This document shows, one piece after another, positions 6,411 to 7,597 of a DNA stretch of 32,481 nucleotides (position 1 is its first letter; every line of letters begins with the position of its first letter). The translations under genes were made by a program, and so were the position numbers. Under the pieces are notes generated by a model. It did not search any database. It saw only the letters and a list, made by a program, of their open reading frames with translations, and was not told the DNA's origin. This DNA comes from Candidatus Magasanikiibacteriota bacterium (lineage in GTDB: Bacteria > Patescibacteriota > Patescibacteriia > Magasanikbacterales > UBA922), in assembly GCA_016214105.1 (NCBI GenBank), contig JACRPD010000025.1:1-32481 (forward strand). Reading direction: 5' to 3'.

Positions 6411-6439
6411 TTGACAATTATTTTTTTGAGTGGTATAGT
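6411..6439 (+). promoter_or_regulatory. sigma70 promoter for tRNA-Asn
   Basis: TTGACA-17bp-TATAGT with extended TG. Confidence 0.8.
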
Positions 6440-6496
6440 ATCCGCGGTTCTTAACAATTCATTCGTCGGTAGCTCAGCGGTAGAGCAGTTGGCTGT

Positions 6497-7046
6497 GAAT
6501 ACTTTATTTTGTTATAATTTTAGAGTTATGACAAAAGAAAAAAGAAAATACCGTGACCGCGCTTTATATCTCATTAAGGCTGTTAACAAAAGGCGAAAGA
6601 AATTACGGCAAATGGCAATTGAACATAAGGGCGGTAAATGCATACTTTGTGGTTACAAAAAATGCGCGCAAGCATTTGATTTTCATCATCTCAATGCTGC
6701 ACAAAAAGATTTTGGCATTTCCATGAATGGTTTGACCAGATCTTGGTTGAGGGTGGGGAAAGAATTAGACAAATGTGTAATGCTGTGCGCCAATTGTCAT
6801 CGTGAGGTTCATGTTGGTATAACGCAGCTTCCGGTTGTAAAACCGGTTGAAAATGGGGTGAATTCAGGGAAGCCTAAAATCGTAAGATGACGGTAATCCT
6901 GAGCCAAGTCCTAGAGGGAATTTGTTCTAGGAAAGGTGCAGAGACTAGTTGGTGAGTCCCAACAATAATCCAACATTAGCGCCCTATCTCCCTATTAATT
7001 GGGAGAATGAGATAGTCCACTCTATCATGAAAATGGTAGGCAAGTG
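6497..7046 (+). mobile_element. Group I intron (550 nt) at anticodon position 35/36
   Basis: Exon ends in U, intron ends in G; P AATTCAGGGAA (6861), Q AATCCTGAGC (6895), R GTGCAGAGACTA (6936), S GAGATAGTCC (7009); P3 GGGGTG/CGCCCT; GNRA-capped P2 and P9. Confidence 0.93.
6528..6890 (+). CDS. Intron-encoded HNH (putative homing) endonuclease, 120 aa
   Basis: Basic N-terminus, CILCG, FDFHH, LCANCHREVH; start reassigned to 6528 because the listed start overlaps the promoter and exon. Confidence 0.88.
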   Translation: MTKEKRKYRDRALYLIKAVNKRRKKLRQMAIEHKGGKCILCGYKKCAQAFDFHHLNAAQKDFGISMNGLTRSWLRVGKELDKCVMLCANCHREVHVGITQLPVVKPVENGVNSGKPKIVR

Positions 7047-7111
7047 TAACCAATTGGTCGCCGGTTCGAATCCGGCCCGACGAGCGCAGTTTATTAACTA
7101 AACCAAAAAAT

Positions 7112-7597
7112 ATGGGTCATTTTAACAAATTTGACAAAGGTCGCGGCGGTTTTGACAGGGATCGCGGCAATCGAGGCGGTGGTTTTAGCGGCGGACGAGG
7201 ATTTGACAGGCGCGATGACGGCTCTAAGCAAATGCACCACGCTACTTGCAGCGAGTGCGGACAGGATTGCGAAGTGCCGTTTAGGCCGACAGGGGATCGT
7301 CCGGTTTTTTGCAGTAATTGCTTCAAAAGCAAAGGCGCTCCTGCCCGCAGTTTTGCTCCAAAAAGTTTTGATAGAGGCGATCGGCGCGGTAGTTTCAGCT
7401 CTGGCAATACCGGCGGCGGTGTTTCCAAAGCGCAGATTGACTTGTTGAATATAAAGTTAGATAAAATTTTATCTCTACTGACCGGCGCAAAAGTTGAAGC
7501 GCCAAAAGCGGATGTTTCAGAAGTGAAAGAAAAAAAAGAAATCGCGAAAAAAGCGAAAACTCCAGCGAAAAAAGCTCCAGCCAAAAAGAAAAAGTAA
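7112..7597 (+). CDS. CxxC-x17-CxxC zinc-ribbon protein with RGG-rich N-terminus and Lys-rich tail
   Basis: MHHATCSECGQDCEVPFRPTGDRPVFCSNCF. Confidence 0.88.
   Translation: MGHFNKFDKGRGGFDRDRGNRGGGFSGGRGFDRRDDGSKQMHHATCSECGQDCEVPFRPTGDRPVFCSNCFKSKGAPARSFAPKSFDRGDRRGSFSSGNTGGGVSKAQIDLLNIKLDKILSLLTGAKVEAPKADVSEVKEKKEIAKKAKTPAKKAPAKKKK

What the first reader, a model, noticed from the sequence alone, without database searches (positions are those of the whole stretch)
6463..7084. tRNA-Asn split inside its anticodon by a group I intron that carries an intact HNH endonuclease
Seen: exons 6463-6496 and 7047-7084 rejoin into a complete tRNA-Asn(GUU). The 550-nt insert sits between anticodon bases 35 and 36, follows a U, ends in G and has P/Q/R/S core motifs, P3, P7 (GACTA/TAGTC), P8, P9 and an extra hairpin between P7 and P3 (IA-like). 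It holds an uninterrupted 120-aa Zn-finger HNH ORF. Known: the classic bacterial tRNA introns (Leu, fMet, Ile, Arg) use other sites and are mostly ORF-less. I recall 35/36 tRNA-Asn introns being reported in Patescibacteria, mostly without endonucleases; this needs checking. Inference: a potentially still-mobile homing element whose host tRNA standard scanners would miss.
Basis: partly seen in the sequence, partly recalled or inferred. Interest (0 to 1): 0.88.

Follow-up and report, generated by a model that had tools for sequence, protein, structure and literature searches.

The report
HNH-carrying group I intron in tRNA-Asn
A tRNA-Asn gene of a small groundwater bacterium is split in its anticodon by a self-splicing-type intron that carries its own DNA-cutting enzyme gene; this element is real and complete, and it turns out to be common in such bacteria rather than unique.

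Summary
Window 6463-6496 and 7047-7084 are the two halves of tRNA-Asn(GUU). A related genome carries the same 72 nt uninterrupted, which fixes the insertion between U35 and U36. The 550-nt insert (6497-7046) passes Rfam's group I intron cut-off (80.6 bits). Its fold is backed by compensatory changes in 49 of 60 pairs over 80 sequences. The 120-aa ORF (6528-6890) matches HNH endonuclease families (PHROG E 2e-27).

The element is not rare. At least 564 loci in species genomes encode the protein, and 79 of the best 80 lie inside a split tRNA-Asn. Among 100 relatives, short ORF-less introns outnumber ORF-bearing ones, and uninterrupted alleles also occur. A 2025 preprint, seen by title only, probably describes the site.

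Observations I found in no held paper:
- The guide sequence lies inside the ORF.
- A conserved extended -10 box sits just before the ATG.
- A sister intron splits the only tRNA-Phe gene found.
- Phage homologues of the HNH sit beside tRNA-Asn genes (7 of 7 loci).

Splicing and cleavage are inferred, not shown. Verdict: a new member of a known kind.

The parts
6411..6439 (+). Promoter-like site TTGACA-17-TATAGT (with TG) about 24 nt upstream of the tRNA
   Evidence: Consensus scan, 11 of 12 matches. A consensus match only.
6463..6496 (+). tRNA-Asn exon 1 (positions 1-35, ends CUGU)
   Evidence: ARAGORN on the joined exons. Identical to the uninterrupted gene of G008.
6497..7046 (+). Group I intron, 550 nt
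   Evidence: Rfam RF00028 at 80.6 bits. Covariation over 80 sequences.
6510..6518 (+). Extended -10 box TGtTATAAT, 9 nt before the ORF's ATG. Proposed intron-internal promoter for a leaderless HNH mRNA.
   Evidence: The same element ends 4-10 nt before the ATG in 42 of 66 loci (33 with TG), against shuffled means of 4.4 and 0.33. Function is inferred.
6528..6890 (+). HNH endonuclease ORF, 120 aa. It starts in the P1 loop and reads through the guide sequence, P2, P3, P4 and P5; its stop lies in P5a.
6824..6829 (+). Internal guide sequence GCAGCU (3' strand of P1). It pairs with GGCUGU 6491-6496, with U6496.G6824 at the 5' splice site. It lies in the codons for T-Q-L.
   Evidence: Q100 and L101 are invariant in the protein alignment.
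6831..6846 (+). P2 hairpin with a GUAA tetraloop
   Evidence: 97.7% of cells paired; 6 of 6 pairs show compensatory changes.
6853..6860 (+). P3 5' strand (pairs with 6980-6987)
   Evidence: 82% paired; 6 of 7 pairs compensatory.
6864..6902 (+). P4-P5-P5a domain (P4 6864-69/6897-6902; P5 6873-74/6892-93; P5a 6879-81/6886-88 with a GUAA loop)
   Evidence: P4 and P5 100% paired. Rfam alignment.
6903..6937 (+). P6 and P6a
   Evidence: 100% and 90% paired.
6943..6947 (+). P7 5' strand GACUA (pairs with UAGUC 7013-7017)
   Evidence: Paired in every cell with letters; four of the five pairs are invariant in all 80 sequences.
6948..6974 (+). Extra hairpin between P7 and P3' (stem 6948-52/6970-74, conserved 17-nt loop)
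   Evidence: The stem differs but stays complementary in the window, L002, L005, L024, L032 and L058 (read by eye). Most other relatives have two hairpins here.
6980..6987 (+). P3 3' strand
6988..7005 (+). P8
   Evidence: 84% paired; 4 of 5 pairs compensatory.
7013..7017 (+). P7 3' strand UAGUC
7022..7039 (+). P9 with a GAAA tetraloop
   Evidence: 83% paired; 6 of 7 pairs compensatory.
7046..7046 (+). Terminal G of the intron (omega-G)
   Evidence: G in 79 of 79 loci.
7047..7084 (+). tRNA-Asn exon 2 (positions 36-73, starts UAA; no encoded CCA)

Best explanation
This is a tRNA-Asn(GUU) gene interrupted between anticodon bases U35 and U36 by a 550-nt group I intron that carries an HNH homing-endonuclease gene.

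Proposed working:
- The gene is transcribed from its own promoter.
- The ribozyme folds. The guide sequence GCAG(CU) pairs with C32-U35 of the anticodon loop, giving a U35.G wobble at the 5' splice site.
- The intron excises itself by the standard two-step guanosine-initiated reaction ending at G7046. This leaves a normal tRNA-Asn.
- The ORF fills the P1 loop and runs on through the guide sequence to P5a, so its last 24 or so residues are read from ribozyme sequence.
- The ORF is probably expressed from an intron-internal extended -10 promoter as a leaderless mRNA. That mRNA lacks the 5' exon and cannot splice.
- The enzyme is expected to cut uninterrupted tRNA-Asn genes near the anticodon. 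Repair would then copy the intron in (homing).

Shown here: the sequence anatomy, family membership of the RNA, covariation, the exact insertion site, and the distribution.
Inferred: splicing, promoter use, nuclease activity and its target.
For: RNA fold and splice sites:
- Rfam group I intron at 80.6 bits, above the cut-off of 50.
- 88.8% of cells paired against 67.9% in shuffles and 34-45% in slid controls. 49 of 60 pairs show compensatory change; 0 of 500 shuffles reach this.
- The last intron base is G in 79 of 79 loci.
- The guide sequence GCAGC is conserved and complementary to the universal C32-U35.

Insertion site and tRNA identity:
- The uninterrupted gene in G008 is identical to exon 1 plus exon 2.
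- DNA contigs of the same and other groundwater samples join across the intron.

Endonuclease:
- PHROG HNH families at E 2.3e-27, 9.6e-25 and 6.8e-20.
- CxxC...HH...CxxCH...H is conserved in 29 of 29 aligned sequences.
- The model shows strand-strand-helix over residues 50-96.
- 79 of 80 homologous loci sit in a split tRNA.

Mobility:
- Relatives show ORF-bearing introns (5), short introns (21 plus 2) and uninterrupted alleles (20) among 100 genomes (my tally; 20 loci checked).
- Phage homologues lie directly beside tRNA-Asn(GUU) genes in 7 of 7 loci examined.

Activity of this intron type in this organism: a sister intron interrupts the only tRNA-Phe gene found in the genome, so that type must splice here.
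Against: - No RNA data exist, so neither splicing nor ORF expression was observed.
- The genome has a second, uninterrupted tRNA-Asn(GUU) on C47. The interrupted copy therefore need not be functional.
- I found no convincing P10 pairing with the 3' exon.
- Pfam HNH scores below its cut-off (14.6 against 21.4 bits). NCBIfam has no relevant match.
- In the profile alignment to a solved HNH domain, the central Asn of the motif is replaced by Lys.
- The structure model is of moderate confidence (pLDDT 66.7). Foldseek finds HNH nucleases only at non-significant E-values of 0.5-3.
- The loci counted are related to one another, so the shuffle controls overstate independence.
Confidence: 0.88

Rival explanations
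1. The host is tRNA-Thr(UGU) and the intron sits at 33/34. This is the same sequence read two bases to the left, which the TGT repeat allows.
For: ARAGORN's intron mode calls the window and about half of the related loci this way. The sister intron in tRNA-Phe does sit at 33/34.
Against: - The uninterrupted G008 gene reads CTGTTAA, not CTTGTAA.
- The would-be terminal G is present in only 55 of 79 loci.
- U33 pairs with A in P1, so the wobble pair is lost.
- The tRNA body has U1-A72 and G73. The genome's three tRNA-Thr genes start GCC and have U73.
Confidence: 0.01
2. The interrupted gene is a relic. The ribozyme no longer splices efficiently, and the cell relies on the uninterrupted tRNA-Asn on C47.
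For: A second tRNA-Asn(GUU) exists in this genome. The same type occurs in 48 of 100 relatives, including genomes whose first copy carries the intron. No RNA evidence is available.
Against: - The exons are identical to a functional-looking uninterrupted gene in another genus and to those of G030.
- All core helices pair, and P7 and the terminal G are intact.
- The promoter-like site is intact.
- The same intron type is the only route to tRNA-Phe in this genome.
Confidence: 0.07
3. The ORF is conserved but is no longer a homing nuclease. It could be an inactive remnant, a splicing helper (maturase), or a nuclease with another role.
For: - The central Asn of the motif is Lys in this family.
- Pfam scores below its cut-off.
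- Part of the apparent protein conservation (T-Q-L) is explained by the RNA guide sequence.
- ORF-less introns are commoner among relatives, so the ORF is dispensable for the intron.
Against: - The Cys pairs and His residues are invariant over 29 of 29 sequences at 55-73% identity.
- There are 1035 homologous clusters with open frames.
- Free-standing homologues beside tRNA-Asn genes in unrelated phages (7 of 7) fit a nuclease that targets this gene.
Confidence: 0.15

Closest known systems
tRNA-fMet group I intron of Synechocystis PCC 6803 with I-Ssp6803I
   Same: A bacterial chromosomal tRNA gene split in the anticodon loop by a group I intron that encodes a homing endonuclease specific for that tRNA gene. 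The sizes are similar: a 655-nt intron and a 150-aa ORF (table and text passages of PMC1995217).
   Different: That enzyme is of the PD-(D/E)XK family, whereas this one is HNH. The host tRNA and site also differ: fMet there, Asn 35/36 here.
Classical ORF-less bacterial tRNA introns (tRNA-Leu, -fMet, -Ile, -Arg)
   Same: Small group I introns in anticodon loops, each following a U. [quoted passage not shown]
   Different: Asn is not among the four. From recall, those introns are of subgroup IC3 and lack helices between P7 and P3'. This family has one or two helices there.
[quoted passage not shown]
   Same: [quoted passage not shown] It may describe this very site.
   Different: I saw only the title, in the reference list of PMC12641178. 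The text is not held. I cannot say which tRNA or site it reports, or whether it mentions HNH ORFs.
HNH endonucleases of phage group I introns (I-TwoI, I-BasI and others) and free-standing HNH genes in phage tRNA clusters
   Same: The same enzyme superfamily and the same life style. PMC1995217 lists I-TwoI and I-BasI among endonucleases encoded in phage group I introns; that they belong to the HNH family is my recollection. The closest phage homologues of this ORF (46-58% identity) are free-standing genes directly beside tRNA-Asn genes.
   Different: Here the gene lies inside an intron of a bacterial tRNA gene and overlaps the ribozyme core.
LAGLIDADG-bearing group I introns in rRNA genes of CPR bacteria
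   Same: The same bacterial group, with the same combination of a self-splicing intron and a homing endonuclease (passages of PMC11270868).
   Different: The host gene and enzyme family differ. That paper has no occurrence of 'HNH' or 'tRNA'.

Membership tests
Group I intron (Rfam RF00028) | Score above the curated cut-off of the covariance model | tested here: met
   80.6 bits against 50, E 3.6e-19, full model 1-253.
Group I intron (Rfam RF00028) | Conserved core helices P3-P9, including the P3/P7 pseudoknot, supported by covariation | tested here: met
   49 of 60 pairs show compensatory change. 88.8% of cells paired against 34-45% in slid controls. P7 is paired in every cell with letters, and four of its five pairs are invariant in all 80 sequences.
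Group I intron (Rfam RF00028) | 5' splice site after a U that forms a U.G wobble with the guide sequence; intron ends in G | tested here: met
   U6496.G6824 in the P1 helix GGCUGU/GCAGCU. Terminal G in 79 of 79 loci.
Group I intron (Rfam RF00028) | Guanosine-dependent self-splicing | not testable with these tools
   No RNA run holds the stretch. This needs an in vitro assay.
Subgroup IA (extra helices P7.1/P7.2 between P7 and P3'; definition recalled) | Two additional hairpins between the P7 5' strand and the P3 3' strand | tested here: inconclusive
   Most of the 78 related tRNA-Asn introns show two hairpins there, for example UCCC-GAAA-GGGA followed by a second. The window, the tRNA-Phe intron and four others have one hairpin with a conserved 17-nt loop (read by eye). 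No subgroup-specific model was available.
HNH endonuclease | Match to curated HNH profiles | tested here: inconclusive
   PHROG HNH families at E 2.3e-27. Pfam PF01844 scores only 14.6 bits against a cut-off of 21.4. 7 of the 120 listed homologues carry a precomputed PF01844 hit.
HNH endonuclease | Two Cys pairs for zinc, a catalytic His on the first strand, and a His on the helix | tested here: met
   C38, C41, H53, H54, C87, C90 and H91 are invariant; H95 is nearly invariant.
HNH endonuclease | Central Asn of the H-N-H motif | tested here: not met
   In the alignment to the HNH domain of 6me0, the position of LDN is LDK in this family. From recall, variants of this residue are known in the superfamily.
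HNH endonuclease | Beta-beta-alpha metal fold | tested here: inconclusive
   The model has strands 50-54 and 83-87 and helix 88-96, with pLDDT 66.7. The best Foldseek matches are HNH nucleases, but at E 0.5-3.
Homing endonuclease gene | Encoded within a self-splicing intron, with intron-plus and intron-minus alleles of the same site in related genomes | tested here: met
Homing endonuclease gene | Cleaves the intron-less allele at or near the insertion site | not testable with these tools
   Needs purified protein and a cleavage assay.
tRNA-Asn | Cloverleaf with anticodon GUU; U1-A72 and G73 as in the genome's other tRNA-Asn | tested here: met
   (U1-A72 in 73 of 79 loci, G73 in 73 of 79). U1 is conserved in cyanobacterial tRNA-Asn according to the abstract of PMC5733544.

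The most novel reading that the evidence does not exclude
This HNH lineage is a specialist of the tRNA-Asn gene, and it is caught at three stages of becoming an intron gene:
1. Free-standing beside tRNA-Asn in unrelated phages (7 of 7 loci).
2. Free-standing just upstream of a tRNA-Asn that carries an ORF-less intron (L061).
3. Fused into the P1 loop of the intron.

At the third stage its 3' end now encodes the ribozyme's guide sequence, so one stretch is under both protein and RNA constraint. There the gene is expressed from its own intron-internal extended -10 promoter as a leaderless mRNA that cannot splice. This would keep translation and ribozyme folding on separate molecules.
Probability: 0.4. 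Interest if true: 0.62.

Novelty: new member of a known kind. Interest (0 to 1): 0.5.

Why it matters
- Annotation: standard scanners miss this gene (PMC8450103). Genomes of these bacteria can therefore appear to lack tRNA-Asn or tRNA-Phe. The ORF is filed as 'hypothetical' or 'McrA' with no hint that it lies in an intron.
- Scale: at least 564 loci in species genomes, which suggests this may be one of the most abundant bacterial tRNA intron families.
- A system for study: the family offers intron-plus/minus, ORF-plus/minus and free-standing forms side by side. This natural series can show how endonuclease genes invade introns and how overlapping RNA and protein constraints are reconciled.

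Tried and rejected
- Thr(UGU) 33/34 register: considered and rejected.
- Protein libraries: the Pfam HNH match is below its cut-off. NCBIfam gave only an irrelevant weak match.
- Solved structures: the PDB profile search gave only weak matches, 6me0 at E 0.006 and 6ghc at E 0.012. Foldseek on the model gave nothing with E at or below 0.001.
- P10: I looked by eye for pairing between the 3' exon (UAA...) and the bases 5' of the guide sequence. I found no consistent helix. Those bases are also codons.
- First structure count: one search used one bracket type, so the P3/P7 pseudoknot was mis-nested. It was repeated correctly.
- RNA evidence: no RNA holder is listed for the stretch. The four runs laid were contigs of DNA or of guessed kind, so nothing can be said on expression or splicing. 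The two joints in run X1 that skip 268 and 286 nt of the ORF region have short sides (31-32 nt) at 85% likeness. They may come from other organisms, and I do not build on them.
- Literature: searches found no held paper on a group I intron in tRNA-Asn of bacteria or on an HNH gene in a bacterial tRNA intron. Only the title of the 2025 preprint was found, and its text is not held. Supplements were closed and not requested.
- ORF beside the tRNA-Phe gene: I guessed that the 228-aa ORF (L002:418-1104, minus strand) is a LAGLIDADG-type endonuclease. Pfam gives only weak helix-turn-helix matches, so the guess is dropped.
- My tally was made by hand from the match table. 13 matches were not listed there, and genomes with only one exon matched were left unclassified.
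Full report
**Observation**

The window is contig C20 of an 840-kb, 84-contig genome with 44% G+C. Its closest relatives include a genome labelled Candidatus Magasanikiibacteriota: locus L005 and G030:C1 are the same place.

Default ARAGORN and the Rfam tRNA model find only tRNA-Glu and tRNA-Met in the window. Rfam's group I intron model matches 6767-7039 on the + strand at 80.6 bits (cut-off 50, E 3.6e-19), over the full model.

Joining 6463-6496 to 7047-7084 in a script gives a 72-nt cloverleaf that ARAGORN calls tRNA-Asn(gtt). The insert is 550 nt (6497-7046), follows U6496 and ends in G7046. An open frame of 120 codons runs from ATG 6528 to the stop at 6888-6890.

**Which register**

The sequence reads CTGT|G...GTG|TAA. 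Moving both splice sites two bases to the left also gives a cloverleaf, tRNA-Thr(UGU) with the intron at 33/34. ARAGORN's intron mode prefers this reading for the window and for about half of the related loci. Four results decide for Asn:

1. A same-family genome of another genus (G008) has an uninterrupted gene identical over all 72 nt to exon 1 plus exon 2 in the Asn register. It reads GGCTGTTAACC, and ARAGORN calls it tRNA-Asn.
2. In 79 related loci the last intron base in the Asn register is G in 79 of 79. The base that would be last in the Thr register is G in only 55 of 79.
3. The conserved guide sequence GCAGC(U) at 6824-6829 pairs with GGCUGU 6491-6496. U35 then forms the U.G wobble that marks a group I 5' splice site, while U33 pairs with A.
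4. The body has U1-A72 and G73, like the genome's other tRNA-Asn. Its three tRNA-Thr genes start GCC and have U73.

**The ribozyme**

I aligned the part from the guide sequence to the tRNA's 3' end for 80 sequences: the window, the genome's second intron, and 78 loci found through the ORF. I then counted pairs for a structure derived from the window and the Rfam alignment.

- 88.8% of 4634 cells form standard pairs, against 67.9% in shuffles and 34-45% when the 3' partners are slid by 1-3 columns.
- 49 of 60 pairs show changes on both sides.
- 0 of 500 shuffles reach the observed values.
- P2, P4, P5, P6 and the T arm (a control) are 98-100% paired. P3 is 82%, P6a 90%, P8 84% and P9 83% paired. 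P7 (GACUA/UAGUC) is paired in every cell with letters, and four of its five pairs are invariant in all 80 sequences.
- P2 and P5a end in GUAA loops and P9 in a GAAA loop.

Between P7 and the 3' strand of P3, most relatives have two small hairpins, the arrangement I recall as the hallmark of subgroup IA. The window, the second intron and four other loci have a single hairpin. Its stem differs between sequences but stays complementary, and its 17-nt loop is conserved (read by eye).

The sequences are related and the structure was derived from one of them. The controls therefore overstate the case somewhat.

**The guide sequence and the ORF**

The guide sequence does not change when tRNA position 31 is G, A or C. 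The constant part of P1 is thus four pairs with C32-U35, which every tRNA-Asn(GUU) has.

The guide sequence lies inside the ORF, in the codons for Thr-Gln-Leu. Gln100 and Leu101 are invariant in the protein alignment, which is better explained by the RNA than by the protein. The ORF begins 31 nt into the P1 loop and reads on through P2, P3, P4 and P5 to a stop in P5a. The variable C-terminal tails of homologues (for example VNSGKPK and GEFREA) are translations of the conserved P3-P4 sequence in different frames.

ORF-less relatives have a P1 loop of only a few bases, for example L061.

**The protein**

- Pfam gives HNH only below its cut-off (14.6 against 21.4 bits), and NCBIfam gives nothing relevant.
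- Three PHROG families annotated as HNH endonuclease match at E 2.3e-27 to 6.8e-20.
- A search of 5.8 billion proteins finds 1035 relatives at E 0.001 or better. The best are 55-73% identical, and those with names are mostly from Patescibacteria.
- Two Cys pairs and the His residues are invariant in 29 of 29 aligned sequences.
- In the profile alignment to the HNH domain of a solved group II intron maturase, the central Asn is Lys in this family.
- The AlphaFold model (pLDDT 66.7) has the expected strand, strand, helix over residues 50-96. Foldseek's best matches are HNH nucleases at non-significant E-values.

**Distribution**

- ARAGORN's intron mode finds a split tRNA around the ORF in 79 of 80.
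- My own exon finder places 78 of these, plus the window, as CTGT|...G|TAA in tRNA-Asn. L073 failed, and ARAGORN called no split tRNA in L080.
- By record title, hosts include many Patescibacteria lineages. They also include Elusimicrobia, Omnitrophota, Methylomirabilota, Aerophobetes and a 5.5-Mb Pyrinomonadaceae chromosome. Some labels of co-assembled bins may be unreliable.

Among 100 relatives of the same family and order, searched with the whole element, I read the following from the match table:

- 5 genomes with an ORF-bearing intron;
- 21 with 217-403 nt between the exon matches, plus 2 with about 480 nt;
- 4 with only the intron's 3' end and exon 2 matched;
- 20 with abutting exon matches, that is, uninterrupted genes;
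- the rest matched one exon only or nothing.

ARAGORN on the 29 fetched loci confirms 5 long and 15 short tRNA-Asn introns. Contigs of the likely source sample and of another groundwater sample join across the intron, and one continues after 6496 with TAACCAATTGG. These are DNA contigs, probably of other organisms. They show only that uninterrupted target sites coexist in those communities.

**Is the interrupted gene needed?**

The genome has a second, uninterrupted tRNA-Asn(GUU) on C47 with a different anticodon stem and an encoded CCA. This second type occurs in 48 of 100 relatives, and every match listed over most of its length lies in one uninterrupted piece. It is present in genomes whose first copy carries the intron. 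Splicing of the Asn intron is therefore not demonstrably essential here. About half of the genome's tRNA genes lack an encoded CCA, so its absence in the interrupted gene means nothing.

By contrast, the genome's second group I intron (C2:1206-1445, minus strand, 70.4 bits) splits the only tRNA-Phe(GAA) gene that ARAGORN finds in this 91%-complete genome. It shares the core and the single-hairpin variant with the Asn intron. It sits between U33 and G34, with P1 GGACU/GGUCC. The same Phe intron occurs in 8 of the 29 fetched relatives' loci, and in L104 the register is unambiguous. This intron type must therefore work in this organism.

**Expression**

A near-consensus promoter-like site (TTGACA-17-TATAGT) lies about 24 nt upstream of the tRNA. 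Inside the intron, TGtTATAAT (6510-6518) ends 9 nt before the ATG, and no Shine-Dalgarno sequence is evident.

Of 66 loci with an ORF of at least 95 aa and a leader of 16-70 nt:

- 42 have a -10-like hexamer ending 4-10 nt before the ATG, against a shuffled mean of 4.4 and a maximum of 12 in 500 shuffles;
- 33 of them have the TG extension, against a shuffled mean of 0.33 and a maximum of 4.

I infer an intron-internal promoter that gives a leaderless mRNA. From recall, intron ORFs of phage T4 are likewise expressed from promoters inside the introns. This is an inference from sequence only.

**A tRNA-Asn specialist?**

The ORF has relatives below 60% identity in 405 phage records. I examined seven loci from the twelve best rows: Bacillus phages BCU4 and Bastille, Cronobacter phage CR3, Klebsiella phages phiKp_21 and Muenster, and Vibrio phages F86 and PG216. 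Two of the twelve rows were duplicates of the same phages, and three were not opened.

In 7 of 7 loci the gene is free-standing and directly adjacent to a tRNA-Asn(GUU) gene. The two Klebsiella phages are of one genus and the two Bacillus phages of one subfamily, so the independent cases are fewer than seven. In one Sungiibacteriota genome (L061) a free-standing homologue lies just upstream of a tRNA-Asn that carries an ORF-less intron.

This fits an endonuclease lineage that recognises the tRNA-Asn gene and has repeatedly settled beside or inside it.

**Comparison with what is known**

[quoted passage not shown] They list one with an endonuclease, the tRNA-fMet intron of Synechocystis with I-Ssp6803I of the PD-(D/E)XK family. 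The same table lists endonucleases of phage group I introns such as I-TwoI and I-BasI; that these are HNH enzymes is my recollection.
- PMC11270868 (passages) describes LAGLIDADG-bearing introns in rRNA genes of these bacteria and does not contain the words HNH or tRNA.
- The title of a 2025 preprint points to a novel tRNA insertion site in Patescibacteria. I could not read it. My searches found nothing else.

**Verdict**

The finding is real and correctly interpreted. It is a member of a very common, poorly annotated family rather than a rarity. Its kind, a group I intron with a homing endonuclease in a tRNA anticodon loop, is known. I found four things in no held paper: the overlap of guide sequence and ORF, the conserved internal promoter, the sister intron in tRNA-Phe, and the link to phage genes beside tRNA-Asn. 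These give it moderate interest.

Noticed in passing
G000 contig C2:1166-1477, minus strand (L002): A second group I intron (240 nt, ORF-less, Rfam 70.4 bits) splits a tRNA-Phe(GAA) between U33 and G34. This is the only tRNA-Phe gene ARAGORN finds in the genome. The same intron occurs in 8 of 29 fetched relatives' loci.
   Followed up: partly
G000 contig C47:3385-3459 (L113:1501-1575): A second, uninterrupted tRNA-Asn(GUU) with a different anticodon stem and an encoded CCA. This type is found in 48 of 100 relatives and was never seen interrupted.
   Followed up: partly
L061:1498-1815 and 1850-2151: In a Sungiibacteriota genome, a free-standing HNH homologue lies about 35 nt upstream of a tRNA-Asn whose intron is ORF-less (230 nt). 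This could be an intermediate between the free-standing and the intron-borne gene.
   Followed up: partly
L114-L120 (Bacillus phages BCU4 and Bastille, Cronobacter phage CR3, Vibrio phages F86 and PG216, Klebsiella phages phiKp_21 and Muenster): The closest phage homologues of the HNH are free-standing genes directly beside a tRNA-Asn(GUU) gene in tRNA clusters, in 7 of 7 loci examined.
   Followed up: partly
L002:418-1104, minus strand: A 228-aa ORF lies directly downstream of the intron-bearing tRNA-Phe. Pfam gives only weak helix-turn-helix matches. My guess that it is a LAGLIDADG-type endonuclease is unsupported.
   Followed up: partly
window 7112-7597 +: A Gly/Arg-rich 161-aa protein with a treble-clef zinc finger (PF23477, E 1.6e-17) lies just downstream of the tRNA.
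   Followed up: no
L016, L042, L050, L059, L062, L065, L066, L070, L075, L078 (mostly labelled as non-Patescibacteria): In these loci the element between P7 and P3' and the ORF's start region differ from the Patescibacteria form. In some the frame opens in exon 1 or very close to the splice site. L054, L068 and L079 have a Shine-Dalgarno-like GGAGG before a likely TTG or GTG start, instead of the -10 box.
   Followed up: no
L018, L037, L022, L060, L065 in alignment A2: Some relatives carry large extra insertions in peripheral loops of the ribozyme (after P3/J3-4, in P5, P8, or between P7 and P3').
   Followed up: no
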